IMG/VR virus record: IMGVR_UViG_3300025687_000026
Location: 1-64,000 of that record
From: a virus
Reading direction: 5' to 3' (one strand)
DNA length: 64,000 nt
The notes under the pieces were generated by a model. It made no database searches, had not been told where the DNA came from, and saw only the letters and a program-made list of their open reading frames with translations. Each line of letters opens with the position of its first letter. Positions within the stretch are counted from its first letter, which is position 1. A program made the translations under genes and the position numbers. Below, piece by piece: positions 1 to 52,189 of this stretch.

Positions 1-2644
1 ATTCTTCACGATACTTGACTTGGTCAGGACGCTTGTTGTAAGCAGCGTCGTATTCCCGCTTGTGACGCATGGCCTCAGGTGATTTGCGCTCTTTAACAAG
101 CACTTCCGAGCGAAGGAAGCCGCCGGATGCCATGCGAGACGCAAGCCCTCCTTGAGATTTATTATAGCGTTCCCAAAAGGCTTTATGGGGATTTTCGACA
201 TCCCATTCAGGAAACTCCTCAGCCATTCGAGCAAGAGCGATGTTGTTGGGATGTTCAGGGTGCGATTTAGCCTCTTGTGACATCAAGAAAAACTGCTTTT
301 CACGAGGTAGAGCGGCGGTGTCTTTTGCAGCATCAAAGTAATGCTGCAGGTAACGATGATATTGGTCATACGCTTCATCAGGGTAAAGATGGTGTTTGTC
401 CGACCGAAACATGCCGCTGTAGTATTCAGTTTCATATTCACGACTGGCCGGGTCAGTCCAGTAAGATGGAACATGCTGCCCATCTTTGTTGGAGATAAAG
501 TCAGCGATGACTCGTTGCTTGTCATGCAGTTCATCGTAAGGAATGAGGGGATAACCCATGTCAAACGCTTCGTCTATAAACTCATCTGATTTTCCAAAGA
601 GGTCGAACGGATTGGTCATGCTTTGTCGGTTGTAGACTTGCTCCATGAAAGGTTGAGTAACGGCGACTGCGTTCTCAAGCGGTTGACCAAAGATACGCTT
701 GTCGTGCTCTTCGTCTCCAATGGTGCGAGTGTAGACGCCTCCGCCATCGGGGTGCATGCGAATGTCCTTACCCGCCAACACTCGTTGAATCATCTCAGGA
801 CTCTCGACGACACCGACTTGATTGCGCTCAAGCACCGAAGCCATTGGACCGCTGGCCTCCATGAAATGCCCCGGTGTGTTCATCGCTTCAACGGCGTGAC
901 CAACAACAGCACGCCTACCGGCCTGAGAGCCGTCTTGTCCAAGCACTGATGACTTGAAGCCGTGCTCAGTTTCTTGGAAAACATGCGCAGCGTCGACATA
1001 CGGGTCTTCGTCGTTGTCAATCAAGTCGTAGCGAGCATGCTTACTTTCGCCACGAAGGTCATCGGCGTTCTTGTATTTAGCATGGCCGCCAATCGGAGCA
1101 TAGGCGATGTTCATGGCCTCAGCCACTTCATTGTAGAGTTCAGGCCGCTCATCCATACCTTCTTTGGGCAGTGAAACCCACTGGTCTTTGATGCCGAAGT
1201 AGTCGTTGAAGGTCTGCTGCTTGAGCAGACGCCAAGCGAGGTCCATCGGCTCTGATGCAATTTTGCGAGCGCCACCTCGCTTGTCTCTCAATGTCTCATC
1301 CATGTCGAGTCCCAACTCATCCGCACGCTCACGGACTTTTCGCATGGCGATGTCCAAAGGTATTTTCTCGCTGAAGGGAACAAAGCCCTCTGTTTCAGGG
1401 GATGTGAACTTCCCAGTAATGGCCCGGAAAGCAGCATCGCCAATCGTCGTGTTCCAATCCCTGTTATAGCGAGCCTCAGGGGTAATTTGTAGACCAACCT
1501 CGTTCATCAAATCTCGTTGATTTTCCATGGCCGCACGCTCCCAGTCGACTGCACGCAACATTTCACGAGGAGTGCGAACGCCGAGTTTCCCTAAGCGACG
1601 ACCTTCACCCCACTTTGCGTTGATGTCTTCAAGACCAAGGGCATGCCCGAGTTCGTGCAATTTTCGCCAGTTGTCGGTAAATGCCGTGTCACTGAACCCA
1701 GCCGTGCGAACTTCCGGGTCGTAAATCGCGAGATGACCAGTTTCGTAATTCTTTTTGTTGAGGTCGGGCATCGGATAACGCCCGCCGAAGTAATACGGCT
1801 CATAACCGTAAGATGCGAGGAGTTCGTCAACATGAGGTGTCAGTTCACTCATTTGCTGAAGTGGGTATGGTTCAAAGGCTTGATTGATAGCGTAAGGGTC
1901 GTAGTAACCGTAATGCCTCATGATGTCCCAAAAACGAGGGTCCCCGGTAGAAGCGTGTTGGTCGCCACCGAGCACTTCTTCTTTCAACAACCGCCAAGCA
2001 AAGTCCATCGGTTCACCTTTGATGAATTGGGAATAGGTTGACATTTGCCCTCCGTGACTGAACGAGTCAAAGCACGATTCACAGAGGTTGTAGGTAACTG
2101 GGCTATGCGGTCGACCTCGTGCCGAATATCCAGTTTTGTATTGTGCGGGTTGCTCTTTGCAGAGTTGACACATATCATCAGGATTGAGTGTCCCAGTTTC
2201 AAGATGTGAAGGCTCATTGTAATCAATCTCGAACGCTTCGTCAGATTTACCAATGGTTGTCCCCGTAGATGCTGCACTGCGAGCCATCTCAGTGGCTCGT
2301 TGCTCCTGCTCCCGCTTTCGCTGCTCGGCTGCCTGCTGCCGCTGTTGAATGCTTTGTTGAACCATCATGGTTCGCTGCAATTTTTTGTTTTGCGGCGTGC
2401 CGCTCTGCATAGCGGCGCTGGCTTGCTCTCTGAGTTCTCCAAGACCCTCTGTGATGTTAGAGCCAGCGGTCTTAGCAGCATCGGCGACTTTACCGACCCC
2501 TGTTTTGGCTGCACCTGCGGTAGCGCTTGCTGCTTTACCTGCGGCTTTAGCCCCTGCTTTGGCTGCACCAAGACCGGCTCGTGCGACAGCGGCAATCGCT
2601 GGAAAGAACTTTTCAACATCGTCCGGGTCGAACGAGGATGTCAT
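1..2644 (-). CDS. Multidomain putative polyprotein (>880 aa, runs off window start): Ala/Lys-rich helix, CxxC..CxxC Zn finger, HExxH zincin-like domain, further domains, separated by EPMD[FL]AWRLLK / GKSDE motifs
   Basis: Absent from the ORF track because it has no stop in the window. I read the frame by hand from ATG 2644 to position 2 with no stop. HELGH at 1643-1657; GEPMDFAWRLLK 1982-2017; SEPMDLAWRLLK 1220-1255. Confidence 0.85.
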   Translation of the reverse strand, partial: MTSSFDPDDVEKFFPAIAAVARAGLGAAKAGAKAAGKAASATAGAAKTGVGKVADAAKTAGSNITEGLGELREQASAAMQSGTPQNKKLQRTMMVQQSIQQRQQAAEQRKREQEQRATEMARSAASTGTTIGKSDEAFEIDYNEPSHLETGTLNPDDMCQLCKEQPAQYKTGYSARGRPHSPVTYNLCESCFDSFSHGGQMSTYSQFIKGEPMDFAWRLLKEEVLGGDQHASTGDPRFWDIMRHYGYYDPYAINQAFEPYPLQQMSELTPHVDELLASYGYEPYYFGGRYPMPDLNKKNYETGHLAIYDPEVRTAGFSDTAFTDNWRKLHELGHALGLEDINAKWGEGRRLGKLGVRTPREMLRAVDWERAAMENQRDLMNEVGLQITPEARYNRDWNTTIGDAAFRAITGKFTSPETEGFVPFSEKIPLDIAMRKVRERADELGLDMDETLRDKRGGARKIASEPMDLAWRLLKQQTFNDYFGIKDQWVSLPKEGMDERPELYNEVAEAMNIAYAPIGGHAKYKNADDLRGESKHARYDLIDNDEDPYVDAAHVFQETEHGFKSSVLGQDGSQAGRRAVVGHAVEAMNTPGHFMEASGPMASVLERNQVGVVESPEMIQRVLAGKDIRMHPDGGGVYTRTIGDEEHDKRIFGQPLENAVAVTQPFMEQVYNRQSMTNPFDLFGKSDEFIDEAFDMGYPLIPYDELHDKQRVIADFISNKDGQHVPSYWTDPASREYETEYYSGMFRSDKHHLYPDEAYDQYHRYLQHYFDAAKDTAALPREKQFFLMSQEAKSHPEHPNNIALARMAEEFPEWDVENPHKAFWERYNKSQGGLASRMASGGFLRSEVLVKERKSPEAMRHKREYDAAYNKRPDQVKYREE

Positions 2645-2650
2645 TGGACA

Positions 2651-2992
2651 TCACAACAAGCCAAAGTAATCGTTCATCACCGAGTAGAAGGCTTTGGCGA
2701 CAGGCTCAGGCACAGCGTCTTCGGGAGCGGGGGTTTCGCCCTCAGGGTTTTCCGTCGCCTTGGGTTGAGCGGCAAGGTGCTCCTGAAGGAGACTGAAAGC
2801 ATATTCCTTTTCTTCAGGAGGCAAATCCGCCAGTTCGGCAAGAGACATGTGCATGTAATCCTGAATGTTCTTACGCAGCACACCGTCGTCCAAGGCCTTC
2901 ATGAGCAAGGCATCGAATAACGCAGCACCGTAGGTGGCGTTGAAGTGATTCATTTTGATGAGGTCAAAGGCGGCAGCGAAAGCACGGCTCAT
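2651..2992 (-). CDS. Hypothetical protein with variant N-terminal tag (MSRAFAAAFDLIK)
   Basis: ORF track 2651..3016; ATG 2992 preferred because of the tag position and a TATA-like box 27 nt upstream. Confidence 0.75.
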   Translation of the reverse strand: MSRAFAAAFDLIKMNHFNATYGAALFDALLMKALDDGVLRKNIQDYMHMSLAELADLPPEEKEYAFSLLQEHLAAQPKATENPEGETPAPEDAVPEPVAKAFYSVMNDYFGLL

Positions 2993-3009
2993 GCAACTGC
3001 GATGATGTC

Positions 3010-3019
3010 GCTTCATATA
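3010..3019 (-). promoter_or_regulatory. Putative leaderless (late) promoter TATA-like box TATATGAAGC
   Basis: Begins 27 nt upstream of ATG 2992; followed by GACATCAT, as is the copy at 4681-4690. Confidence 0.55.
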
Positions 3020-3032
3020 GCGGTTGCGCTGG

Positions 3033-3935
3033 CTACTCCACTGGCTCTCGATTTTGAATCATGTCTCGCCATTTTTGAGCACCAAGTTTCTGACCCCAGT
3101 AATACTCACTTTCACCGCGGTCTTTTTCCTCTTCACCAACAAACTCAAACAAACGACGCTGCTCAGGGTTGTCAATCATGTCGTTCATCAATTGGAGGTT
3201 ACGAAGCCCTCTTCTGTAGAGTTCTTCTTGTGTTCCAAGATACCCCGTGCGAGGGTTGCGAGCGTCATTCCAAGGCTCAAAGCGTGAAGTGTCCCCGTAA
3301 ATGTTGATGAAACTGCGTCGTTGCTCATCGGGCACTTTCAACCAATCTTTCAAACGAGGCATCGTCGATGCCCACTTCTGACCATTTTCATCGTAAGTTG
3401 GCTCTCTATGAGCGCCAAGATTCATCACTTCAAAGTCAATGGCTTTCATACCATCGTCGTAAATGCCCGTGTTTGCTTCACGAACATCCGTAACGCCTAT
3501 GGCCTGCATCAAGGGGTCCTGAATCGGCCCGTAGGTAATGAGCGGGTGCCGCACTGTGTCTCTGAATTGATTCTGAAAATCAGTTTGCTCTTGCCATGTA
3601 GTGTCGGGGTCGTTTGACAAACGAGCCTTTTCATCCGACACCACAGCGTTCGCTCTCGGCTGCGTTGTTCCGGGGTAAGGACCTTGCACAGTGCCTCCAA
3701 TTTTGTAGGCTAAAACCGGTGTTTCAGGCATGACCGGATAACCCAGTTGAGCCAAGGCGTCCATGGCGGCGATGTTTGTCATTTGCTGCCCGCCCATGTT
3801 AGGGAGTTTGATGACTTCGTTCCTGTTCCTTCTGTTTGGAAAGACCTGTCGGAACGACCCTTCACCCATGGGTAATCCTGAAACGCTCACTTTTTCCGCC
3901 TTCAACACAGCCCATGCTGCATCAAAAGCCCTCAT
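3033..3935 (-). CDS. Protein kinase-like fold protein with N-terminal AFDAAWAVLK tag
   Basis: Gly-rich loop GEGSFRQV, VIK lysine, catalytic loop DVREAN (DxxxxN), IDF (DFG equivalent). Confidence 0.7.
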   Translation of the reverse strand: MRAFDAAWAVLKAEKVSVSGLPMGEGSFRQVFPNRRNRNEVIKLPNMGGQQMTNIAAMDALAQLGYPVMPETPVLAYKIGGTVQGPYPGTTQPRANAVVSDEKARLSNDPDTTWQEQTDFQNQFRDTVRHPLITYGPIQDPLMQAIGVTDVREANTGIYDDGMKAIDFEVMNLGAHREPTYDENGQKWASTMPRLKDWLKVPDEQRRSFINIYGDTSRFEPWNDARNPRTGYLGTQEELYRRGLRNLQLMNDMIDNPEQRRLFEFVGEEEKDRGESEYYWGQKLGAQKWRDMIQNREPVE

Positions 3936-4663
3936 CGGTATTCACCTCGTGTCCACACGGGGTCGATGTTGTTGATTAACAGAGGCTTATTGAGCCGATG
4001 CAAACCCATTCGGTATTCTTCATCAGCGTCATGATGTGAGCGTGCTTGTGCGAGTTCATCTGCTCCGTAGTAACCGTATTCGGGACGCAGGATAGCGTTC
4101 ATCAATGCTTCTCTTAACTTCTCATTGGTCATGTCATGACCGAAGAGGTATTTGCTACTCTGCAATTCAATCGGAACAGGGACATCGCCGTAGCCTGCAT
4201 CACGAAGTGCCTGCATGCGATGTCGACCTTCGTGTCCTACAACTCTGAATCCACCGCCTTCTTCGGGCATGACTTTGAGGAACGGGGCGGCAATCGGCGC
4301 ACCTTGGTCCATAAACTCACGAATGGCCGTTTGTTGACCTGAGCGGTGTTCGGGTGCGGGAGCCCCTACCAATTGGTGAAATTGTTCGGGGGTCATCATC
4401 ATTTTACCGGCTTTGAGTTCAAAGCCCGAGTTTTCACCGATGGGGTAGTATTGCTTTTCTTCTCTTGTTCCGCTTTCAATCCACTCACCTGTTTCTTCAT
4501 CTTGCTTGAAGTTGGGCACAGTGTAGGTTTGCGGTAGGTGAGCAAATTGAGCATCGCCTTCAGAGCCACGAACACGCTCGTTGCTGTCCCAAATCTCGTA
4601 GGGGCCTGCGGTGTAGCGAGCCATCTTGAGCACAGCCCACGCTGCGTCAAAGGCTCCGCTCAT
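3932..4663 (-). CDS. ParB/Sulfiredoxin-like domain protein with N-terminal AFDAAWAVLK tag
   Basis: FRVVGHEGRHRMQALRDAGYGDVPV matches the ParB/Srx GxHRxxA signature. Confidence 0.65.
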   Translation of the reverse strand: MSGAFDAAWAVLKMARYTAGPYEIWDSNERVRGSEGDAQFAHLPQTYTVPNFKQDEETGEWIESGTREEKQYYPIGENSGFELKAGKMMMTPEQFHQLVGAPAPEHRSGQQTAIREFMDQGAPIAAPFLKVMPEEGGGFRVVGHEGRHRMQALRDAGYGDVPVPIELQSSKYLFGHDMTNEKLREALMNAILRPEYGYYGADELAQARSHHDADEEYRMGLHRLNKPLLINNIDPVWTRGEYR

Positions 4664-5505
4664 ACCACTGTCATGATGTCGCTTGATAAAGCATTTTTGA
4701 GACGCATCGCTATTTGCTCCGCAGCCTGCAGGCTACGCTCGTCAATGCCTGTTTCAAAGCCCCAAGCGTTGAGATGGCGAACCAATGTTTCGGTAGCAAG
4801 GTTAGCACCGCTGCCTTCAGCGAATGGGCAACCACCAAGACCCCCGATGGACGAGTCAAATTGCCGGATTCCGGCAAGCAAACCGGCTCGAACGAGTGAA
4901 ATCGCCTGTGATTCGTCTCCACGATGATGCAAATGCAGCGCTGGCGTCATTTCATTTTCAAAAGCGACCGATGCTGCTACCGAGATGTCGCTGGGACTCG
5001 CACAGCCGACCGTATCGGCAAAAACCACCGTGTCGCCGAACATTTTGGCGTCTCGAACCATGTTTTGCAGGTGTTTTCGACCAAAAGAGCCGCTATCAGG
5101 GCTTCCAAAGGCCATCGAGATGTAGACTCGGACCTTTTCCTTGGAGTAGTTGTTCAACATTTGACGATAAGTAAGCATCAACTCACCATGTCGCTTACCC
5201 ATGTTGCGCATGCAGAATGTTTCGCACGGTGAGAGGACGATGTTCACTTTTTCAGCGCCGCAGGCCATCGCACGCTCAAATCCACGCTGATTGAGCACCA
5301 AAACCGACCCTTTTCCTGTGAAAACCGCCTCGGCATCGGCCATTTGCGGCAAAATCTTGGGATGAACGAACGAAACTTCCTCGATGTGCTCGATACCGGC
5401 GTTGTAGAGAGCATTGATGAGTTCACGACGCTTTTCAGTCGGCACGACATGCGAAAGTGACTGCAAACCGTCCCGAGGACCGACCTCGTAGACGGTGACT
5501 TTCAC
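4660..5505 (-). CDS. hmgL: Hydroxymethylglutaryl-CoA lyase (DRE-TIM metallolyase), auxiliary metabolic gene
   Basis: EVGPRDGLQ, SFVHPK..PQMADA, ADTVG, HLHH metal ligands, GLGGCPFA..SGANLATE. Confidence 0.9.
   Translation of the reverse strand: MKVTVYEVGPRDGLQSLSHVVPTEKRRELINALYNAGIEHIEEVSFVHPKILPQMADAEAVFTGKGSVLVLNQRGFERAMACGAEKVNIVLSPCETFCMRNMGKRHGELMLTYRQMLNNYSKEKVRVYISMAFGSPDSGSFGRKHLQNMVRDAKMFGDTVVFADTVGCASPSDISVAASVAFENEMTPALHLHHRGDESQAISLVRAGLLAGIRQFDSSIGGLGGCPFAEGSGANLATETLVRHLNAWGFETGIDERSLQAAEQIAMRLKNALSSDIMTVV
4681..4690 (-). promoter_or_regulatory. Putative leaderless promoter TATA-like box TTTATCAAGC
   Basis: Begins 27 nt upstream of ATG 4663; lies inside the 3' end of hmgL. Confidence 0.55.
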
Positions 5506-5657
5506 TGGATGCCCCTCCGCATTCCGTTGAAGCAGGCTTGGTGAAAGGCCGCCTCGTCTTCAATGAAAACTACAGTGTCAGTGGGGTCGGGGGTAGCCAG
5601 CCACATCGTTACAAACCCCGCTATGAAAGAGAGGAAGAGCAGCGTCGGCAACAGCAT
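5502..5657 (-). CDS. Small membrane protein (51 aa, MLLPTLLFLSFIAGFVTMWLA...)
   Basis: Hand-translated, below ORF-track cutoff; hydrophobic N-terminus; its TGA overlaps the GTG start of hmgL. Confidence 0.6.
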   Translation of the reverse strand: MLLPTLLFLSFIAGFVTMWLATPDPTDTVVFIEDEAAFHQACFNGMRRGIQ

Positions 5658-5696
5658 GTGTGAGCCGAGGGCGGTGTGGAAATTAAACTTATTGAC

Positions 5697-6254
5697 TCAA
5701 AGGCCGTATTGACGGGCTGTTTTGAGGCTGTCTCGGAACTCTCGTCCTTCCCTATTTTCCCTCACATCGTTTCTGAAAGCCATGGGTGATGTCGCATCCG
5801 GCTCACCGGTAGCAATCTCTTCCGGTGTCATGGGCCTACTCGTGACATAAGGTGGTCGGTTGAGCGTAGCCCCTTCTCTAAAATCAGGAACAAAGGCGTT
5901 ATCCAAAGCCGTCATAAGTTTTGAATGAGGAGTCCCTGCTTCGTAAGAATTGATATTGCTGAGACTTCTTCGTTCAAGGTCTGAAGCGGATGAGCGACTT
6001 TCACCGGTCTGTGGGTTGGTGTGAGTGACGGTGTCGAACGGTCGCGGTCGGCTTGAGTCAAAATTGAAAGGTTTGCTCACTGACGGCGGCAATCCATACG
6101 GGTCTGTGGCCCGCTGAACCATACCGGCAATAGCAGGGTGAACTGTTTGACTGACCGAGATGTTCCCCGGCCCGCCCGAAGGAGGGCCAAACATTCGTTG
6201 ACGAGGGTCCGCTTTGAGAACAGACCATGCTGCATCGAAGGCTCTCATCATCAA
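5697..6254 (-). CDS. Hypothetical protein with AFDAAWSVLK tag
   Basis: ORF track; shares TVHPAIxGxxQR with 6251..6790. Confidence 0.75.
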   Translation of the reverse strand: MMMRAFDAAWSVLKADPRQRMFGPPSGGPGNISVSQTVHPAIAGMVQRATDPYGLPPSVSKPFNFDSSRPRPFDTVTHTNPQTGESRSSASDLERRSLSNINSYEAGTPHSKLMTALDNAFVPDFREGATLNRPPYVTSRPMTPEEIATGEPDATSPMAFRNDVRENREGREFRDSLKTARQYGL

Positions 6255-6790
6255 AACTCCCTGTAAGGAACAGAATCTCTGCTGAATCGAGAAAATATGT
6301 GCGACGGCCTCATAGGTTGCCCTTGTTCGCGCCGACGAATTGCGGCTTCTCGGAGACTTCTTGTTGGATATTGAGCAAAGAAAGCAAGGTTTTGGTCTTC
6401 ATCTTCAAAGTAAGGTAATTCTTTCACACCATGTGACCTTTGAGCAATATCAAGGCTGTGTTGAGAAGAGCCCGGACTTGGTTTTATGGTTTCGACAGGG
6501 TCTTCGTAGAGTGTGCCTAAGTCTTCAATTTTTGGACCGGGTGACGACCAATGTCGGGGAGGGTCAAATTGCATTGAAGGTCTTGCCCGATTAAAGTCCG
6601 TATATCCATCCGGCCCAACTCCACGATGAAGGCGTTGCAGCAATCCTCGAATTGCGGGGTGAACGGTTCCAAACCGCTCTTGTGTAGGCTGTGTTTCAAA
6701 CCTTCCATCGCCCCTTTGCTCAAACACTTGGTCTTCAGGGAGCGCTTTGATAACGGACCATGCTGCGTCAAAGGCTCTCATGGGTTTCAC
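6251..6790 (-). CDS. Hypothetical protein with AFDAAWSVIK tag
   Basis: ORF track; 4-nt overlaps with neighbours; segment paralogous to 5697..6254. Confidence 0.75.
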   Translation of the reverse strand: MKPMRAFDAAWSVIKALPEDQVFEQRGDGRFETQPTQERFGTVHPAIRGLLQRLHRGVGPDGYTDFNRARPSMQFDPPRHWSSPGPKIEDLGTLYEDPVETIKPSPGSSQHSLDIAQRSHGVKELPYFEDEDQNLAFFAQYPTRSLREAAIRRREQGQPMRPSHIFSRFSRDSVPYREF

Positions 6791-7215
6791 TCTCCGAAGT
6801 GATAATCAGTTAACGGCATGGCTTCACGGGTGCGGAAACCGGGGCGAGGTGTCGTTGGCGCTCGCTCTCCACGACGCATCTCACGGGGTTTGCCCGCTGA
6901 GAGCGGCATCGTTTGGCCCGTTGAGCCAAGAGGAACATCGGTGTCGATGGGGCGAGGAGCGGCCGCTACAGGAGCCTGCTCCACGAACGGGTTGAATGGC
7001 TCGCCGCCGGGCTGTGAAAACGCACCCCGGCTATCTCGGGGGTCAGGCAAGTTTCGCATAGCGTCGATGCGGGCCTGATGGAATGCGTTAGCGCCAGCCA
7101 TAGCATCGTCACGAAGCGCCATGCGCCCTTCACGGCCCAGCGTGCGCTGACCACGATAGGAGTTCACATCGTATTGCTTGATGATGGACCAAGCGGCGTC
7201 AAAGGGTCGGACCAT
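6787..7215 (-). CDS. Hypothetical protein with PFDAAWSIIK tag
   Basis: ORF track; tag at N-terminus. Confidence 0.75.
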   Translation of the reverse strand: MVRPFDAAWSIIKQYDVNSYRGQRTLGREGRMALRDDAMAGANAFHQARIDAMRNLPDPRDSRGAFSQPGGEPFNPFVEQAPVAAAPRPIDTDVPLGSTGQTMPLSAGKPREMRRGERAPTTPRPGFRTREAMPLTDYHFGE

Positions 7216-7232
7216 AAACTTCTGACAAGGCT

Positions 7233-7242
7233 GCTTGATAAA
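7233..7242 (-). promoter_or_regulatory. Putative leaderless promoter TATA-like box TTTATCAAGC
   Basis: Identical 10-mer to 4681-4690, again 27 nt upstream of an ATG (7215). Confidence 0.55.
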
Positions 7243-7245
7243 AGA

Positions 7246-8340
7246 TTATTGGATGTAATTTGCCCGTGTCCTTCGAGCCATCTCCGATGCGTCGTCCATA
7301 GGGAAAAGCGGTTGATTGGCCTCCCAAGCGGCGTAGTCTGACTCCAAAAGACCGGGAAGCCGACTTTGTGAAAAGATTCGCGAACCGTAAGCGGGATTGG
7401 GAAGACGCATAGGCGCATCTTGCACAAGCCCGTAGGATGGATTGCTGTAATGGGAATCTATCCCCTTTTCGCGCTGTGCGTTTTTTAGACTGTTAATCAC
7501 TCTTCGTCTTTCATAGTCAAAACCACCATTATCACGAGCAAGGATTTCACGAGCCGCCTCGGTCGGGACAATGATGTCCCGGTTACGATGGTAATGTGGT
7601 CTTCCTGCTATTGGTCCCGGCACCTCAAGGTCACGAGTTCGATAAGACTCGCTTGAGCGGTCAAAAAAGGGCACGGTGATACGATGCGGTCCGCGCAGGT
7701 CGCCCCAATCGCCGCCCGGCCCGTGTTTGCCGGGGAAGTAAGGAGCGTGGGTGTAGTGATGGTCGTCATATTCGCTGTCACCCGATGAATCAAATATCGT
7801 GCTAACATCTATGTCGTCAGGTAGCGTGCGAATGAACTTTTTGTGAAACGGGTCGGACATTTCGTTGCGTGAATGTGAAGTCAATGGGAAACCATGCCGA
7901 ATGAGATTTTCAATCAGTTCACGGTAGTAGCCCTTGCGTCGATGCTGTGCGGGGACCTCACCGGCAAAATCGCTGATTTGATTTTCTCTGTTAGTGTGGA
8001 TTTCAGCCAACCGTTCCCCTGCTTCGTCTTCAAGGGCATAGGTGACAGCGTCATCAAATTGAAACCCTGCTGCAGTTGGATTCTCAAATGTCCTTACGAT
8101 GCGAGCAGGCATTCTTCTGCGGGCGACATAACGCTCACGCTGCCGTGGGTTATTCAGAACTTCTTCAAGACCTTCGAGGAAAGGCCCCATCTGACGAGGC
8201 CCCTCATCCGCAAAGCCACGGCCATCTCTTCGCCTGCTTCGCCTGCTATCAGCAATCATCTGCCCTTCGTAGCCGGGAAGCCTTGACTGCCGATTGACTT
8301 GTTTAAGCAGCAACCACGCTTGCTCAAACGCTTCCGACAT
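7246..8340 (-). CDS. GNAT-like acetyltransferase domain protein with MSEAFEQAWLLLK tag
   Basis: VPAQHRRKGYYRELIENL resembles GNAT acetyl-CoA binding motif A; start moved to the tag Met at 8340. Confidence 0.55.
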   Translation of the reverse strand: MSEAFEQAWLLLKQVNRQSRLPGYEGQMIADSRRSRRRDGRGFADEGPRQMGPFLEGLEEVLNNPRQRERYVARRRMPARIVRTFENPTAAGFQFDDAVTYALEDEAGERLAEIHTNRENQISDFAGEVPAQHRRKGYYRELIENLIRHGFPLTSHSRNEMSDPFHKKFIRTLPDDIDVSTIFDSSGDSEYDDHHYTHAPYFPGKHGPGGDWGDLRGPHRITVPFFDRSSESYRTRDLEVPGPIAGRPHYHRNRDIIVPTEAAREILARDNGGFDYERRRVINSLKNAQREKGIDSHYSNPSYGLVQDAPMRLPNPAYGSRIFSQSRLPGLLESDYAAWEANQPLFPMDDASEMARRTRANYIQ

Positions 8341-8344
8341 GCTT

Positions 8345-8869
8345 TTACCGCCTGTAATCACGCAGACGCCTCAAATCACGAGCAACTTCTTCATCGCTCA
8401 ATGGTTTGATTTTGCGACGATAGGAGAGCGGAGCGATAGAGCGTCGATGCGCTTCGGCAAGGTAACGCTGTATCTCTTCCATGTCGATGCCCTGTTCCCA
8501 TGGGATTGCTTCAGGGAGGCTTCCTTCGGGGTCTTCAACCGCTATGGGAGCGTTGCGAGCCTCTATGGCCTGCTGAGCAAACATGCGAGCGTCAGCGGGG
8601 TTGCGAGATGTCCTTGCTTGATGGTCGAGATTGGCGGCTTCCATCCACGGATTCAGGTCAACAAAGCCCTGCGGGAAGGGCGTGAGCGGTTTGTGTCCAG
8701 CAGGTTGAAGCCACCGTGGATTGGTGTTACCACGAGGCGTGTAGGTGTCGAGCATGGATTGCATGTTTTGATAATGACGCAAGTCTTGCTCAGGAGCATT
8801 CGGGTCGTCCTGAAAAGCAGGGTTGAGAGCCTTGAGGACGCTCCACGCCTGCTCAAACGCTTCCGACAT
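8345..8869 (-). CDS. Hypothetical protein with MSEAFEQAWSVLK tag
   Basis: ORF track 8345..8950; start moved to 8869, whose first 27 nt nearly match the start of the 8340 gene. Confidence 0.75.
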   Translation of the reverse strand: MSEAFEQAWSVLKALNPAFQDDPNAPEQDLRHYQNMQSMLDTYTPRGNTNPRWLQPAGHKPLTPFPQGFVDLNPWMEAANLDHQARTSRNPADARMFAQQAIEARNAPIAVEDPEGSLPEAIPWEQGIDMEEIQRYLAEAHRRSIAPLSYRRKIKPLSDEEVARDLRRLRDYRR

Positions 8870-17460: not shown

Positions 17461-18411
17461 ATGGCGAAGATGAGTAGAGAACAGAAGAAGACATACGGCA
17501 AACAGAAGAGCGATGAGATGAGCGAGCGGTGGTTCAACGCCATCGCTGACGGCATCAAGTCAGGCAACATCCCATGGCGTAAGCCGTGGAACGGTGGTGC
17601 TTCAGGTATGCCTCAGAACCTCAAGAGCAAGAAGACTTACCGTGGTGGTAACTTGATGGGACTGTGGTTCTCAGCCATGGCGGCTGGCTTCAGCGACCTT
17701 CGGTTCGCCACACGCAACCAACTCAAAGAGGCGGGCATGAGCATCGCTGGCCTGAAGAACGGGACTGGTTTCCCCATCCGCTTCTTCAAACCCAACACCT
17801 ACGAGAAAGAGAACGAGCGAGGCGAGGTTGAGGTTCGCTCAGGTTATGTCACCCGGTGGTATGAGGTGTGGTGCGTTGAGCAGTGCGAGGGTTACGAAGC
17901 CCCTCCCGTGAGCGACTCTCATCAACCTGTTCCCGTCCATGAGATGATGAGCAACTTCAACACCTATGTTGAGAGTCAACCCACGCTGACCTTGAACCGT
18001 GGCGGCAATCGTGCCTTCTATCGGCTCAACGGCGACACCATCCAACTCCCCGTCCACGAAGCATTCACCGATTCACTCGGCGAAGTCATGACGGCGTTTC
18101 ACGAAGCGGTTCACTCCACTGGGCACCCCCAGCGTTGTGAGCGTGACCTGAAGAACTCGTTCGGCTCCCCTGAGTATGCGCTTGAGGAACTGGTCGCTGA
18201 ACTTGGCTCCATGCTTACTGTTGTGCGCCTTGGTGGTGAGTTCAAACCTGATGCTGTCATGGAGGAAAACGCCAACAACATCGCCTACCTTCAGTCATGG
18301 CTCAAGGCTTGTAACGAGCAAGACAAAGCCCTCACCGCCGCATTCGGTCAGGCTCAAGCGGCCTCCGACTACATCGTTTCCTACTGTCAAAGCGAGGAGG
18401 TGAACGAATGA
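17461..18411 (+). CDS. ardC: ArdC-like antirestriction protein (ssDNA-binding domain + zincin-like domain)
   Basis: IPWRKPW, YRGGN, AFY, HEAVHSTGH, YALEELVAELGS, YLQSW. Confidence 0.85.
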   Translation: MAKMSREQKKTYGKQKSDEMSERWFNAIADGIKSGNIPWRKPWNGGASGMPQNLKSKKTYRGGNLMGLWFSAMAAGFSDLRFATRNQLKEAGMSIAGLKNGTGFPIRFFKPNTYEKENERGEVEVRSGYVTRWYEVWCVEQCEGYEAPPVSDSHQPVPVHEMMSNFNTYVESQPTLTLNRGGNRAFYRLNGDTIQLPVHEAFTDSLGEVMTAFHEAVHSTGHPQRCERDLKNSFGSPEYALEELVAELGSMLTVVRLGGEFKPDAVMEENANNIAYLQSWLKACNEQDKALTAAFGQAQAASDYIVSYCQSEEVNE

Positions 18412-45041: not shown

Positions 45042-45646
45042 CTGAAATAATGGCCCTTGACATCGAGACGGGTAACTACTCGTATGAGATTGGAGGTTGG
45101 GACAAGCACGCCTTGTTCGAGCCTACCGTTGTCGCTACATGGGACGGAGCCAACGGCGATGTCTTCAGCAAACAGAGCATTGACATGGCTACCGCCAAGG
45201 TGCACGACCTTCACCCACGCACGCTGGGCGACCACCTGCAAAAGCACATTGACGCTGGAGGCGTCGTGCTCGGTCACAACATCAAGAAGTTCGACCTCCC
45301 AGTGCTCAACGCAGCACTGGACTGCTGGACAGCAGGCGACCTGATGAGCAAGTCTGAGAGTGTCATTGACACCAAACTACTCGTCAGCAAGGCCGCTGGC
45401 GGCAAGGACATCGCTACCAGCCTTGAGATGCTGGCCCGTAACACACTGGACATCGGTAAGAGCATGACAAGTGCCGATGCCCCTGAAGCATGGCGAGCAG
45501 GCCGCTACCTTGAGGTGGCTGAATACTGCTTGAAAGACGCTCAATTGACCTACGACCTCTACCAACACGGTCGTGAGAATGGAGTGGTGAAAAGCCGCTC
45601 GTTGGAGGACGGGTCAATTGTTGAAATTGAGGTGAACTGGGAATGA
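45038..45646 (+). CDS. DEDD/RNase H-like 3'-5' exonuclease (YprB-like)
   Basis: LDIET, GHNIKKFDL, YCLKD. Confidence 0.82.
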   Translation: MTEIMALDIETGNYSYEIGGWDKHALFEPTVVATWDGANGDVFSKQSIDMATAKVHDLHPRTLGDHLQKHIDAGGVVLGHNIKKFDLPVLNAALDCWTAGDLMSKSESVIDTKLLVSKAAGGKDIATSLEMLARNTLDIGKSMTSADAPEAWRAGRYLEVAEYCLKDAQLTYDLYQHGRENGVVKSRSLEDGSIVEIEVNWE

Positions 45647-47118
45647 CTGAAAACAAAAATCACAACGCACAACGACTGAACATCGAGGCTGTCAAGCGCA
45701 TCGTCGGCACTGTCCGCACCACGCTTGGTCCGATGGGTATGGACAAAATGATGGTTGACGGTGGCGGAAATGTCATCGTCACCAACGACGGAGCAACCAT
45801 TCTCCGTGAATTGGATAGCGCCCACCCTGCGGCGAAGATGATTGTCGAGGTGTCCAAGGTCCAAGAAACGAACTGCTACGACGGAACCACCAGCAGCGTG
45901 GTGCTCGCAGGTCAACTGCTAAGCAACGCCGAGGGTCTATTCGACAAGGGCCTTCACCCCAATGTCGTCAACAAGGGTTACACCAAGGCTCAGGCGATGG
46001 TGCTTGAAGAACTTCCGAAACTCTCAGTTGATGGTGAGCGCTCACTGCAAGCCATCGCACGCACAGCCATCACAGGAAAGTCATTGGAAGCATCCGAAGA
46101 CCGCGTTGCTCAACTCTGCGTCGACACCATCCGTGCTGTCGGCGATGCTTCCGATGTCCGTGTGCTCGCTGCGCCCGGTGGCTCGCTCAATGACTCCTAT
46201 CTTTTCGAGGGCGTCGTGGTCAACAAGGACTTCGTTACGGCTGATGGTGACTTCGAGAACGCCGTTACGCCCATCCTGCTGGTCAACAGTGGGCTGGAGG
46301 AGCAGAAGCAAGACGGGAATGTGCAAGTGCAGGTGGACGCTTCGTCCTACAGCACGCTGAAGAATGCAGGGCGTGAGGAACTGCTGGAAGCAGCCAAGCA
46401 TATCGAAGCCTCAGGTGCCCGAGTCGTCTTCGTTCGCGACGGGGTGCACGATACGGTCGTGCAATATCTACACAAGCGTGGTGTCTTTGTCTGCCGCCGT
46501 GTGCCCCCGAGCACCATGAAGCGTCTCTGCAACGAGTTCGGTGTCAACGCTTACCACACGCCCGAGAGCGACATGGAATTGTGCGAGGCTCTCATCGACC
46601 GTCGCCGCTACAACGATGTCGACTACCTCTTCGTCAGCAACAACCTCGCCTCAAGCGAGGCTACACTGGTGCTGTTTGGCGCAACGCAGTCGACGCTGGA
46701 CGAGGTTCAGCGTGGCTTTGACGACGCATTGGGCGTCGTGTCCCTCGTGGCCAACGGCGACAGCGTCTGCTACGGTGGAGGTGCAACTTACCTCGCACTG
46801 GCCTCTTGCTTGAGGAGCCGTGCTGCTGAGGTGGGTGGTCGTGCTCAGATGGCGATTGAAGCCTACGCTGACGCACTGGAGGCTATCCCCGGCACCATCG
46901 CTGAAAACGCTGGTCATGATGCACTGGACACTGTGCTCGCTATGCGCCACGCTGGACTGCCCTTCGGGCCCAATGTGGAGACTGGCGGTATCATGGACAT
47001 GGGTGAGTCTCAGGTCTTTGAACCGATGTCGCTCATCCGCAGCGCTATCACGAGCGCTACTGAGGTCACGACAGCCATCCTACGCATCGACGACATCATT
47101 GGTCGGCGTGGTGAGTAA
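45643..47118 (+). CDS. ths: Group II chaperonin (thermosome-like)
   Basis: TLGPMGMDKM, TNDGATIL, DGTTS, GGGA, ILRIDD. Confidence 0.93.
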   Translation: MTENKNHNAQRLNIEAVKRIVGTVRTTLGPMGMDKMMVDGGGNVIVTNDGATILRELDSAHPAAKMIVEVSKVQETNCYDGTTSSVVLAGQLLSNAEGLFDKGLHPNVVNKGYTKAQAMVLEELPKLSVDGERSLQAIARTAITGKSLEASEDRVAQLCVDTIRAVGDASDVRVLAAPGGSLNDSYLFEGVVVNKDFVTADGDFENAVTPILLVNSGLEEQKQDGNVQVQVDASSYSTLKNAGREELLEAAKHIEASGARVVFVRDGVHDTVVQYLHKRGVFVCRRVPPSTMKRLCNEFGVNAYHTPESDMELCEALIDRRRYNDVDYLFVSNNLASSEATLVLFGATQSTLDEVQRGFDDALGVVSLVANGDSVCYGGGATYLALASCLRSRAAEVGGRAQMAIEAYADALEAIPGTIAENAGHDALDTVLAMRHAGLPFGPNVETGGIMDMGESQVFEPMSLIRSAITSATEVTTAILRIDDIIGRRGE

Positions 47119-50780: not shown

Positions 50781-52189
50781 TATGCGTCACCTCTGTATGT
50801 GATTGGAGTGGACTTGCTACCACCGAGGGTTTCTTCGTCACTACTTCCACCGAGCACGCCCCTGTTCATGGCTTTACCGATGATAAACCCTGAGAGGCCG
50901 TGATTCTGAATTGTAATGATGGGAACCGTGACAATTTCGATGTCACCAAACAACGAGAAGTTTTGTTCAATGACCTGCTCGACGACTTCAGGCCGACGGC
51001 CGGTGTTCTGAGCACCCTCAAGAATGCCTTGCAGCACGCCTTCAATGCCGCTGTCAACGGTGAGGAAAACAAGGTCAGCGGTGTTCTCCGAAAGGTTGTG
51101 ACGCACTTCGGTGAGGATGCGGTTGCGTCCTTCATATTCGATGATTTTACCCGGTCGCAAGTCCCATGAAGCGGTGTGACCTGAACTGGTCTTGTTACCG
51201 GCGAGAAGGTTGTTGGCCTTCAACACGCTGCGTGCAACACGACGGGCCGCCTCGTTGTTTCGCACCGTGAAGTCTTCAATGACCTGCGGGTCCTGTTGCA
51301 CATCGCCACCACGACCACTCTGTCGCTCAGCATCGCTGACTTCGGCGTAGGCGGTATCGTTGACCGAGAGGGGTGTGCCTTGCACGATAACACGGTTGCT
51401 GGTGTTGTCGACTGGGTTGGTTCCAGCAGGCCCGGTCCTGTTGTTAGCGTCGACGAAACGACCGCTTTCACCGAAGTTGAACGGCACATAGAGCAGGCTA
51501 CCAAAGCGCTCAAAGTAGATGATGCGATTGTCATGACGCCCAAGGAAACGCAACGCCGTGACGAGGTTGACTCCGTAGAAGTCGGTAGCGATAAAGCGGG
51601 TGCTGTGACGGCGACGGTCACCGCTGGAGTTGCTGGGAGTGAGCGGAAGTGCGATGTTGACCGAGGTGAGCGTATCAGCGATGTCACGACCAAGACGCAT
51701 GGCCATGTCGGTCGTGCGGAAACCGACATCAATTGGCTGCGCTGCGTAACCTGCCGTGCTGTTGAAGCCCAGTTCACTGAGCGTTTTGCCTTTCATGTTC
51801 CGCACTGCAAAAACAGAACCCTTGTTTCCAGTGGAGTGACTACCGAGTGACAGGCGCTCAGTCTGCTGGTCTATAGAATACAACATCCTCGGACTATTTG
51901 AAGCAGCATCGCTACGCATGTAGAAGATGCGATTTTGTGAAGTGTGACCCGGCGTTGATGTGTGAGTCAAAACGACACTGTCTTGACGCTCGTCGATGGT
52001 GTAAGAGTGCGTTGATGCGACAGCGTAGGTTGAGGTCTTGCGTTGCTTGACGGTGACCTTAGCCTGCGTTGTGCCCTGCATAGCAATTTCACCAAGGTGC
52101 ACTGCGTTGTCGACGAAGACTGGCTTGCGCACTTGTTTCATCACGACATCGGTGTCACCGGTCGTGCGTTGCTGTGCGAGGAAGGTCAC
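50780..52189 (-). CDS. Putative tail hub/baseplate-like protein
   Basis: NRVIVQG...A...A..L...DLRPG.I pattern typical of hub proteins; position. Confidence 0.55.
   Translation of the reverse strand: MTFLAQQRTTGDTDVVMKQVRKPVFVDNAVHLGEIAMQGTTQAKVTVKQRKTSTYAVASTHSYTIDERQDSVVLTHTSTPGHTSQNRIFYMRSDAASNSPRMLYSIDQQTERLSLGSHSTGNKGSVFAVRNMKGKTLSELGFNSTAGYAAQPIDVGFRTTDMAMRLGRDIADTLTSVNIALPLTPSNSSGDRRRHSTRFIATDFYGVNLVTALRFLGRHDNRIIYFERFGSLLYVPFNFGESGRFVDANNRTGPAGTNPVDNTSNRVIVQGTPLSVNDTAYAEVSDAERQSGRGGDVQQDPQVIEDFTVRNNEAARRVARSVLKANNLLAGNKTSSGHTASWDLRPGKIIEYEGRNRILTEVRHNLSENTADLVFLTVDSGIEGVLQGILEGAQNTGRRPEVVEQVIEQNFSLFGDIEIVTVPIITIQNHGLSGFIIGKAMNRGVLGGSSDEETLGGSKSTPITYRGDA

What the first reader, a model, noticed from the sequence alone, without database searches (positions are those of the whole stretch)
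1..8869. Family of unrelated effector proteins sharing one short N-terminal tag: candidate virion-packaging and protease-processing system
SEEN: eight minus-strand genes (starts 2992, 3935, 4663, 6254, 6790, 7215, 8340, 8869) begin with about 12 residues of consensus [AP]F[DE]xAWx[VLI][LI]K. The instances are RAFDAAWAVLK, GAFDAAWAVLK, RAFDAAWSVLK, RAFDAAWSVIK, RPFDAAWSIIK, EAFEQAWLLLK, EAFEQAWSVLK and the variant RAFAAAFDLIK. After the Lys the sequences diverge into different cargoes: kinase-like, ParB/Srx-like, GNAT-like and unknowns. Codons vary synonymously between copies (GAT/GAC, GCA/GCG/GCT, TTG/CTC), so conservation is at the peptide level. hmgL and the small membrane gene in the same cluster lack the tag, and I saw it in no plus-strand gene. 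KNOWN: T4 internal proteins carry a ~10-residue N-terminal capsid-targeting sequence removed by prohead protease gp21, and Listeria phage A511 capsid protein is cleaved at a Lys-Ser bond. INFERENCE: this is an archaeal-virus 'address label' that loads a variable arsenal of host-modifying enzymes into the head, to be released by cleavage after Lys and injected with the DNA.
Basis: partly seen in the sequence, partly recalled or inferred. Interest (0 to 1): 0.92.

Follow-up and report, generated by a model that had tools for sequence, protein, structure and literature searches.

The report
Shared address tag on magrovirus proteins
Twelve otherwise unrelated proteins of this ocean archaeal virus carry the same 12-residue helix ending in lysine, most likely a label that loads fast-changing enzymes into the virus head, though neither loading nor clipping has been measured.

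Summary
The motif M-x-[AP]-F-[DE]-x-A-W-x-h-h-K heads 8 genes in window 2651-8869. It also occurs twice inside the large ORF at 1-2644 and four more times near terminase and portal elsewhere in the same ~106-kb genome. All 14 copies lie on the structural-gene strand, where shuffles predict none. The genome is a group-A-like magrovirus. Four related complete genomes carry 8-17 copies each, always on the capsid-gene strand. The closest cultured halovirus has none, and 400 host-order genomes show only chance levels. Selection acts on the peptide: third codon positions are 44% identical and Lys is never replaced by Arg. Cargos are unrelated: 93 fall into 62 BLAST clusters, and folds include kinase-like and ParB/Srx-like. 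They turn over between close relatives.

New here: an internal subtype ([ST]GEPMD[LI]A[FWM][RQ]LLK) brackets swappable cassettes in a DUF5872 head-module protein, and some copies sit at the extreme C-terminus. The tag is therefore a portable docking helix, not only a leader. Capsid loading is the best reading (~0.5). Cleavage after Lys is untested. No paper in the library mentions the motif. This scan has already flagged the same tag in at least eight other magrovirus genomes.

The parts
8345..8869 (-). Tagged gene (174 aa from the ATG at 8869); tag 8831-8869 (MSEAFEQAWSVLK). Cargo has no known family.
   Evidence: no Pfam/PHROG hit
7246..8340 (-). Tagged gene (364 aa from the ATG at 8340); tag 8302-8340 (MSEAFEQAWLLLK). 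Cargo is a weak GNAT-like lead only.
   Evidence: Atlas feature score 0.87-0.89 to viral GNAT clusters; ortholog in L049 is only 38% identical
6787..7215 (-). Tagged gene (142 aa); tag 7177-7215 (MVRPFDAAWSIIK). Cargo is Pro/Arg/Gly-rich and basic.
6251..6781 (-). Tagged gene (176 aa from the ATG at 6781); tag 6746-6781 (MRAFDAAWSVIK). By eye, both this cargo and the next gene's carry TVHPAI.G..QR soon after the tag; BLASTP found no direct hit between them.
5697..6248 (-). Tagged gene (183 aa from the ATG at 6248); tag 6213-6248 (MRAFDAAWSVLK). Cargo is Pro-rich and probably disordered.
5502..5657 (-). Untagged 51-aa hydrophobic ORF inside the array
   Evidence: homolog in L005
4660..5505 (-). 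Untagged HMGL-like (DRE-TIM metallolyase) gene, conserved inside the tagged arrays of 11 related loci
   Evidence: Pfam PF00682 E=2e-24; tblastn 37-79% identity in L004, L005, L008, L010, L020, L024, L027, L030, L036, L041, L049
3932..4663 (-). Tagged gene (243 aa); tag 4625-4663 (MSGAFDAAWAVLK). Cargo is ParB/Srx-like (Osa-like) with an HEGRHRM motif.
   Evidence: VIA Z 6.0 to Osa 4o7k over 121 residues; Srx Z about 4. AF2 pTM 0.77 with the tag as helix 3-12.
3033..3935 (-). Tagged gene (300 aa); tag 3900-3935 (MRAFDAAWAVLK). Cargo has a protein-kinase-like fold (G-loop GEGSFRQV, VIK, DVRxxN, IDFE).
   Evidence: All 12 homologs down to 33% identity keep the tag. AF2 pTM 0.75, residues 1-28 below pLDDT 50.
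2651..2992 (-). Tagged gene (113 aa from the ATG at 2992) with a variant tag at 2954-2992 (MSRAFAAAFDLIK)
   Evidence: ortholog in L041/L049 58% identical
1..2644 (-). Large modular ORF (881 aa in the window, continuing across the contig junction to about 106033). Order: N-part with Cys-rich segment, internal tag 1982-2014, HELGH module, internal tag 1220-1252, a further module, a degenerate tag, then the conserved basic C-domain (ERKSPEAMRHKREYD...).
   Evidence: C-domain shared with DUF5872-family proteins; HExxH module not assignable by Pfam

Best explanation
The tag is a portable 10-12-residue amphipathic docking helix. F4, W8 and L11 form one hydrophobic face, flanked by D5 and an invariant K12, and the helix is usually ended by Pro. 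Magroviruses attach it to many unrelated late proteins so that they all bind one common viral receptor. The most likely receptor is the inside of the assembling procapsid (scaffold/protease, capsid protein or portal region). Tagged proteins would then be packed into the head and enter the next Poseidoniales cell with the DNA, as T4 internal proteins and P1 Dar proteins do. The HK97-type S78 prohead protease may then cut at the invariant Lys, separating cassettes of the modular proteins and removing the leader.

Shown here: the motif, its peptide-level selection, its restriction to the virus and to the structural-gene strand, its modularity and position independence, and cargo diversity and turnover.

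Inferred: the receptor, packaging, cleavage and delivery.
For: - Fourteen copies in this genome, all on the structural-gene strand, against 0 expected.
- Related complete genomes carry 8-17 copies each, always on the MCP strand.
- Copies sit inside the terL-portal head module (own genome; a tagged gene abuts terL in L044) and 1.5-2.5 kb downstream of MCP in L016/L031/L037/L038.
- The register is fixed: the start codon lies 1-2 residues before the motif in 101 of 109 N-terminal cases. K is present in 101/101, W in 99/101 and F in 98/101; Pro follows at +2 in 30%.
- Selection is on the peptide: third codon positions are 44% identical.
- 93 cargos fall into 62 BLAST clusters with different folds: kinase-like and ParB/Srx-like.
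- The tag stays invariant while the kinase cargo drifts to 33% identity.
- AF2 leaves the tag outside the kinase domain (pLDDT <50) and models it as a 10-residue helix in the ParB-like protein.
- Cargo content differs between relatives whose flanking genes are about 80% identical, like T-even IP loci (PMC3012670).
- An S78 prohead protease with a scaffold-like tail is encoded. From my own knowledge, HK97 S78 cuts gp5 after Lys103.
- The tag is absent from host genomes beyond chance.
- The cargo repertoire matches early-phase effectors of polyvalent proteins (PMC5512222).
Against: - There is no proteomic, structural or expression evidence.
- No tag-like sequence occurs in MCP, protease/scaffold, portal, the 1857-aa head protein or terL. 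The best PSSM score is 6.4, against a 95% null of 8.2.
- Some tags sit at the extreme C-terminus with 2-5 residues after Lys, so cutting there would release nothing.
- The residue after Lys is not consistent between tag subtypes.
- Cargos are mostly acidic (median pI 5.0), unlike the basic T4 internal proteins.
- The main array lies about 10 kb from the head genes.
- Carrying 8-17 extra protein species per head is a heavy load for a ~106-kb siphovirus-like capsid.
- The related halovirus HVTV-1 manages without the tag.
Confidence: 0.5

Rival explanations
1. The tag docks proteins to a common hub that is not the capsid. Candidates are a viral or host factor in the infected cell, such as the virus-encoded group II chaperonin, an assembly or replication compartment, or a host machine. 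Another possibility is that the tags bind each other and gather the tagged proteins into one body.
For: The F-x3-W-x2-L amphipathic helix is a generic docking element; from my own knowledge, p53 F19/W23/L26 binds MDM2 this way. The tag is position-independent and can be multi-copy in one protein, which fits multivalent binding. No head protein resembles the tag. A chaperonin is encoded at 45643-47118.
Against: All copies lie on the structural-gene strand and several lie inside the terL-portal module or just after MCP. Magroviruses use either a thermosome or GroEL, and only 12 of 26 encode a chaperonin at all (PMC5434244), so the chaperonin is a poor universal receptor. Host genomes lack the motif, so it is not mimicry of a host ligand with this sequence.
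Confidence: 0.2
2. The motif is mainly a protease recognition and cleavage site that marks module junctions, as in a polyprotein. Stand-alone tagged genes would be cassettes that kept the junction. Targeting would be done by other parts, for example the DUF5872 domain.
For: In the DUF5872 family the internal subtype sits exactly at borders between the conserved N-domain, variable cassettes and the conserved C-domain. Lys is invariant and never Arg. An S78 protease is encoded, and HExxH modules lie between tags in two proteins here.
Against: For 9 single-module proteins, cleavage would only remove 12-13 residues, which gives no reason to conserve F, D, A and W so strictly. C-terminal copies have nothing to release. 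P1' is inconsistent between subtypes. The HExxH cassette is found only in the closest relatives, so it is not the general processing enzyme.
Confidence: 0.15
3. The conserved stretch serves DNA-level cassette shuffling. It would be a recombination joint, like the junction motifs of polymorphic toxin loci, and the peptide itself would have little function.
For: Cassettes bounded by tags differ between homologous DUF5872 proteins, and array content turns over quickly. One adjacent pair shares a 21-nt exact run.
Against: Third codon positions are only 44% identical. Of the 91 pairwise tag comparisons, only two exceed a 12-nt exact run: 21 nt for 8863/8334 and 16 nt for 6778/4657. Synonymous codons are freely mixed across 101 instances, while seven of the twelve positions (M, A/P, F, D/E, A, W, K) stay nearly invariant and two more stay hydrophobic. 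That pattern indicates selection on the peptide.
Confidence: 0.05
4. The tagged genes are simply fast-diverging paralogs of one ancestral gene, and only their N-terminal helix is still recognisable.
For: Some small paralog groups exist inside arrays: BLAST clusters of 7, 7 and 6. By eye, the cargos at 5697-6248 and 6251-6781 both carry TVHPAI.G..QR soon after the tag, although BLASTP found no direct hit between them.
Against: There are 62 BLAST clusters among 93 cargos, with lengths from 70 to 427 aa. Folds differ: protein-kinase-like versus ParB/Srx-like. Relatives also carry D12 methylase, DnaJ Cys-rich and DUF6321 domains. The same motif also occurs inside and at the end of other proteins.
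Confidence: 0.02

Closest known systems
Capsid targeting sequence (CTS) of phage T4 / T-even internal proteins IPI-III and Alt
   Same: A short N-terminal peptide is the only conserved part of a diverse, fast-changing set of proteins. In T4 it encapsidates them into the scaffolding core, it is portable to foreign proteins, and the cargo counters host defences (PMC3012670, PMC9024508). Here the tag is likewise the only conserved part, and array content differs between close relatives.
   Different: There is no sequence similarity. From my own knowledge, T4 uses the gp21 protease cutting at L/I-x-E, whereas this virus has an HK97-type S78 protease and a tag ending in an invariant Lys. This tag also occurs internally and at C-termini, with up to 17 copies per genome. 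Cargos are acidic rather than basic. Packaging is unproven. The host is an archaeon.
[quoted passage not shown]
   Same: An N-terminal signal (the first 30 residues are sufficient) directs a large enzyme and a reporter into the capsid for delivery with the DNA (PMC9024508). DdrB carries a ParB-like domain and is processed before packaging (PMC5512222).
   Different: In P1 no shared motif across many cargo families has been described. Here one motif heads at least 62 sequence clusters.
Polyvalent proteins of phages and conjugative elements (Iyer et al. 2017, PMC5512222)
   Same: The effector repertoire overlaps (kinase, ParB-like, zincin HExxH, N6A methylase). Genes sit in late or structural contexts, and proteins are proposed to be processed into units and delivered with the DNA. 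The ORF at 1-2644 and the DUF5872 protein are multi-module chains.
   Different: Most effectors here are separate genes that each carry the tag, rather than domains of one giant chain. Pfam found no MuF or MPTase domain in any of the tagged proteins of this genome. The junctions carry a defined helix motif, which is not described for polyvalent proteins.
Encapsulin cargo-loading peptides, and the HK97 protease or scaffold C-terminal targeting tails
   Same: From my own knowledge, a short peptide docks cargo to the inner face of an HK97-fold shell and works when transplanted.
   Different: The motifs are unrelated and usually C-terminal. In this genome the scaffold tail (PST.DM..MSWEEVHQLAG) does not match the tag.
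Junction motifs of polymorphic toxins (for example VENN in CdiA)
   Same: From my own knowledge, a short conserved motif separates a conserved trafficking part from swappable C-terminal modules. The DUF5872 family here shows that layout.
   Different: This is a viral head-module context, the motif is helical, and it is also used as a stand-alone N-terminal leader. No immunity genes are seen.

Membership tests
T4-type CTS / internal-protein system | One short N-terminal peptide shared by otherwise unrelated proteins | tested here: met
   Nine N-terminal copies in this genome and 109 across loci. 62 BLAST clusters among 93 cargos; kinase-like versus ParB/Srx-like folds.
T4-type CTS / internal-protein system | Cargo loci are hyperplastic between close relatives | tested here: met
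   L049 has flanking HMGL and SNF2 at 79-80% identity but lacks orthologs of the kinase, ParB-like and 8345 genes. Retained cargos are 38-58% identical. Copy number is 8-17 per genome.
T4-type CTS / internal-protein system | Tagged proteins are physically inside the prohead or virion | not testable with these tools
   No proteome or structure is available. Only gene position and strand argue for it.
T4-type CTS / internal-protein system | Tag removed by the gp21-type prohead protease at an L/I-x-E site; sequence kinship with the T4 CTS | tested here: not met
   The protease is Peptidase_S78 (HK97/XkdF type), not gp21 type. The tag ends in h-h-K with no L/I-x-E consensus. So this is an analogue, not a member.
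Substrate of an HK97-type (S78) prohead protease cutting after Lys | S78 protease encoded in the same head module | tested here: met
   PF04586 E=4e-9 and PHROG head maturation protease hits at 80059-81453.
Substrate of an HK97-type (S78) prohead protease cutting after Lys | Observed neo-N-terminus after the Lys, or the same site in the known substrates (capsid or scaffold) | tested here: inconclusive
   No tag-like site in MCP, scaffold or portal. MCP has a conserved ...SELLK-AD... near its N-terminus, but nothing shows that it is cut.
Polyvalent proteins (PMC5512222) | Two to fifteen conflict-related domains in one polypeptide | tested here: inconclusive
   The ORF at 1-2644 and P0001 have several modules separated by tags, but no module reaches a Pfam threshold.
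Polyvalent proteins (PMC5512222) | Zincin-like MPTase and/or MuF hub domain | tested here: inconclusive
   Only HExxH motifs are seen (HELGH; HEDMH). Pfam gives no MPTase or MuF hit on tagged proteins. A separate untagged ArdC-N + MPTase-PolyVal gene lies on the other strand at 17461-18411.
Simple paralogous gene family | Homology along the length of the proteins | tested here: not met
   No two tagged cargos of this genome hit each other at E<=1e-3, and different folds are predicted.
Mimicry of a host N-terminal leader (as in staphylococcal phage 80alpha / ribosomal protein L27) | The same motif on host proteins | tested here: not met
   The strict pattern matched 4 loci among 185,579 species genomes. 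Five of the 7 matches lie on one viral contig of a Poseidoniales single-cell genome. The looser pattern gave 5 single hits in 400 Poseidoniales genomes, with about 3 expected by chance.

The most novel reading that the evidence does not exclude
Magroviruses, among the most abundant archaeal viruses in the surface ocean, may use one position-independent helix as a universal address. The helix (F-D-x-A-W-x-h-h-K) would also act as a Lys-specific processing code. Through it, 8-17 rapidly exchanged proteins per genome would be loaded into the capsid. Examples include kinase-like, ParB/Srx-like, zincin-like and methylase proteins. These would be cut free by the HK97-type protease and injected ahead of gene expression. 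That would make it an archaeal-virus counterpart of T4 internal proteins, built as a cassette system.
Probability: 0.4. Interest if true: 0.85.

Novelty: new variant of a known kind. Interest (0 to 1): 0.72.

Why it matters
No cargo-packaging signal is known for any archaeal virus, and magroviruses are uncultured, so their infection strategy is inferred only from genes. A single recognisable tag would give a direct, sequence-based list of the proteins these viruses probably carry into Poseidoniales cells, which are about one gene in ten here. It would mark them as the likely front line of virus-host conflict. It would also make the question testable without a culture: procapsids could be reconstituted with tag-GFP, and viral-fraction metaproteomes could be searched for tagged proteins and neo-N-termini. 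Finally, a 12-residue portable loading signal for an HK97-fold shell would be a useful tool for protein encapsulation.

Tried and rejected
- Pfam, PHROGs and NCBIfam on all tagged proteins of this genome gave no family.
- PDB sequence searches for the kinase-like and ParB-like proteins found nothing usable.
- The HExxH modules could not be assigned to any zincin family by Pfam at E<=1. BLASTP against the genome's own MPTase-PolyVal gene gave only E 0.011-0.24 over short, mis-registered stretches.
- HExxH cassette as the tag-specific protease: rejected as a general answer, because it occurs only in the closest relatives of the DUF5872 protein.
- Resemblance of the tag to the scaffold/protease C-terminal tail (a lead from earlier notes on other magroviruses): not seen here. 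The best PSSM score in the protease/scaffold is 3.7, against a null median of 2.4.
- Host-leader mimicry: rejected.
- DNA-level repeat or recombination site: rejected as the main cause.
- The cultured halovirus relative HVTV-1 has no tag, so its published virion data cannot be used.
- The 1857-aa head protein has no Pfam domain that would identify a receptor.
- Full-text searches for the motif strings, and reading of three magrovirus papers, found no mention of the motif.
- A role for the HMGL-like enzyme in modifying the tag lysine was considered, but nothing supports it beyond conserved position.


Full report
**What the DNA is.**
The window is the first 64 kb of a single 107,060-bp contig. 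Its first bases recur near its end, as in a circular or terminally redundant genome of about 106.4 kb.

The plus strand from about 9 to 47 kb carries replication genes:
- an SNF2 helicase;
- an ArdC-N + MPTase-PolyVal gene;
- family B DNA polymerase;
- an RFC-like ATPase;
- a PD-(D/E)XK nuclease;
- a group II chaperonin.

The minus strand carries one long co-oriented block. It runs from 8950 down through the contig junction in this order:
- large terminase (94298-95782);
- portal (88253-89962);
- a 1857-aa protein;
- an HK97-type Peptidase_S78 prohead protease with a coiled-coil tail (80059-81453);
- an HK97-fold capsid protein (78847-80019);
- tail tube, tape measure and a 5660-aa ORF.

A thermosome gene, an SNF2 gene, a ~100-kb genome and a capsid protein 34% identical to haloviruses HVTV-1 and HCTV-5 together match group A magroviruses as described in PMC5434244.

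**The observation.**
All eight N-terminal instances exist at the stated starts. The DNA pattern for F-[DE]-x-A-W-x-h-h-K matches seven times in the window, all on the minus strand. None of 100 dinucleotide-preserving shuffles gave a match.

A position matrix built from the strict matches found 14 copies in the whole genome, all on the minus strand:
- Nine are N-terminal: eight in the window, and one at 92712 that heads a 200-aa gene between terminase and portal.
- Five are internal:
  - two in the ORF at 1-2644;
  - two in a 302-aa DUF5872 protein (91208-92116), where they flank an HExxH module;
  - one in a 477-aa protein next to the terminase.

**It is a family-wide feature.**
- A degenerate DNA pattern in IMG/VR returned 50 loci. 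Many hold tandem arrays of 8-12 genes that each begin M-[TSNR]-[AP]-F-D-x-A-W-x-h-h-K.
- Of 137 distinct instances, 109 are N-terminal. In 101 of those, the start codon lies exactly one or two residues before the motif.
- Among those 101 instances, Lys is present in 101, Trp in 99 and Phe in 98. Arg never replaces Lys.
- The residue after Lys is Ala (36%) or Met (21%), and Pro follows at +2 in 30%.
- A tag profile found 17, 13, 8 and 10 copies in four near-complete related genomes. These always lie on the strand of the capsid gene, which is 63-81% identical to this one. The profile found none in HVTV-1.

**It is viral, not host.**
The strict pattern occurs in only four loci among 185,579 species genomes. 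Five of the seven matches lie on one 106-kb contig of a Poseidoniales single-cell genome. That contig has nine copies in the same two-cluster layout as this genome, while the rest of that cell's assembly has none. Four hundred other Poseidoniales genomes gave five single matches, about the chance level.

**Selection is on the peptide.**
Pairwise identity of the tag-coding DNA is 0.70, 0.87 and 0.44 at codon positions 1, 2 and 3. Only two tag pairs exceed a 12-nt exact run: 21 nt and 16 nt. Synonymous codons are mixed at every conserved residue.

**The cargos are unrelated and unstable.**
- With the tag removed, 93 tagged proteins fall into 62 BLASTP clusters. No two of this genome's nine hit each other.
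- Pfam recognises only five families among 94 tagged proteins: DUF6321 twice, and D12 methylase, DnaJ Cys-rich and ParBc_2 once each.
- The 300-aa protein is protein-kinase-like:
  - G-loop, VIK, D-x-x-x-x-N and DFE motifs are conserved;
  - Atlas neighbours include Kinase-PolyVal, T7 kinase and APH;
  - AF2 gives pTM 0.75, and the top 50 Foldseek hits are almost all kinase-fold proteins (mostly protein kinases, plus HipA and NleH2), at marginal E-values near 1e-3.
- The 243-aa protein is ParB/Srx-like: it has an HEGRHRM motif, VIA gives Z 6.0 to Osa, and sulfiredoxin and ParB follow.
- The GNAT reading of the 364-aa protein is only a weak lead.
- All 12 kinase homologs keep the tag down to 33% identity. 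One ParB-like homolog has a different N-terminus without it.
- A relative with about 80% identical flanking genes lacks the kinase, the ParB-like gene and others. Its retained cargos are only 38-58% identical.

**What the tag looks like.**
F4, W8 and L11 fall on one face of a helix, with D5 and K12 at its edges. AF2 models residues 3-12 of the ParB-like protein as a helix. It leaves residues 1-28 of the kinase unpacked at low confidence. The frequent Pro after the tag fits a separate, detachable helix. That this is a docking helix is inference.

**The new point: an internal subtype and cassettes.**
The DUF5872 protein has 1743 homologs. Seventy-two of the 120 listed carry one to three internal copies of a distinct subtype, [ST]-G-E-P-M-D-[LI]-A-[FWM]-[RQ]-L-L-K.

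The layout is:
- a conserved N-domain ending in GVGGKPTIVK;
- a tag;
- variable cassettes, each closed by a tag;
- a conserved C-domain of about 77 aa starting PVSPEAKRHKLEYD.

The ORF at 1-2644 ends in the same C-domain. Some copies sit at the very end of a protein with 2-5 residues after Lys. The tag is therefore position-independent. This fits a docking or sorting element better than a pure leader that is cut to free what follows. The HExxH cassette occurs only in the nearest relatives, so it is not the general tag protease.

**Mechanism.**
The best reading is a capsid-loading address analogous to the T4 CTS. Processing by the S78 protease at the invariant Lys is possible. From my own knowledge, HK97 cuts its capsid protein after Lys103.

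For this reading:
- the restriction to the structural-gene strand;
- copies inside the head module;
- a repertoire like that of delivered effectors (PMC5512222);
- T-even-like turnover of the cargo genes (PMC3012670).

Against it:
- there are no protein data;
- capsid, scaffold and portal contain no tag-like site;
- some copies are C-terminal;
- the residue after Lys is inconsistent between subtypes;
- the cargos are acidic.

I put capsid loading at about 0.5. Some form of portable docking or sorting tag is close to certain.

**Novelty.**
The motif strings are absent from the paper library, and three magrovirus papers do not mention such a motif. Earlier notes of this scan describe the same tag in at least eight other magrovirus genomes. 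Their suggestion that the tag copies the scaffold tail does not hold in this genome.

Noticed in passing
window 4660-5505 (-): The untagged HMGL-like (DRE-TIM metallolyase) gene sits inside the tagged arrays of 11 divergent related loci at 37-79% identity. It is already listed as a magrovirus auxiliary metabolic gene (PMC10160649). Why it keeps this position is unexplained.
   Followed up: partly
L055/L057 = CACGHY010000002.1 (G001:C2), 106,262 bp: A contig of a Poseidoniales single-cell genome (AG-422-I20) carries nine tags in the same two-cluster, one-strand layout as this genome, while the rest of that assembly has none. It is probably a magrovirus genome caught in or on its host cell, which would be a direct host link.
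   Followed up: partly
window 52186-63885 (-), continuing to 69168 on the contig: A single open frame of 5660 aa follows the tape-measure gene on the structural strand. Its 3899-aa part inside the window (52186-63885) has no Pfam hit; the remainder beyond the window end was not scanned. A second giant ORF of 1857 aa lies between portal and protease and also has no domain hit.
   Followed up: partly
L002:7208-8116 (-) (contig 91208-92116): The 302-aa DUF5872 protein repeats a basic stretch (RAKKQGVGGKPT[IV]VK), once before its first tag and again after its last tag. Its N-terminal domain is about 90% identical across hundreds of metagenomic clusters, while the rest is swapped.
   Followed up: partly
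L003:10034-11005 (-) and window 1-700: The two contig ends overlap by about 700 bp but are not identical, with several amino-acid differences in the overlapping ORF. This suggests population variants merged at the assembly junction.
   Followed up: no
window 17461-18411 (+): An ArdC-N + MPTase-PolyVal anti-restriction-type gene sits in the plus-strand (replication) block without a tag. Not all conflict-type proteins of this virus use the tag.
   Followed up: no
contig 78847-80019 and L072 (HVTV-1): The magrovirus capsid protein starts about where HVTV-1's begins after a 73-residue N-terminal extension. Both share a K-A-D site (SELLK-AD versus GMSK-AD) near the N-arm. Whether either is a maturation cut is unknown.
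   Followed up: no
N-terminal tags in all loci: Met directly follows the tag Lys in 21% of N-terminal tags (for example LLKM). This could allow an untagged isoform from an internal start.
   Followed up: no
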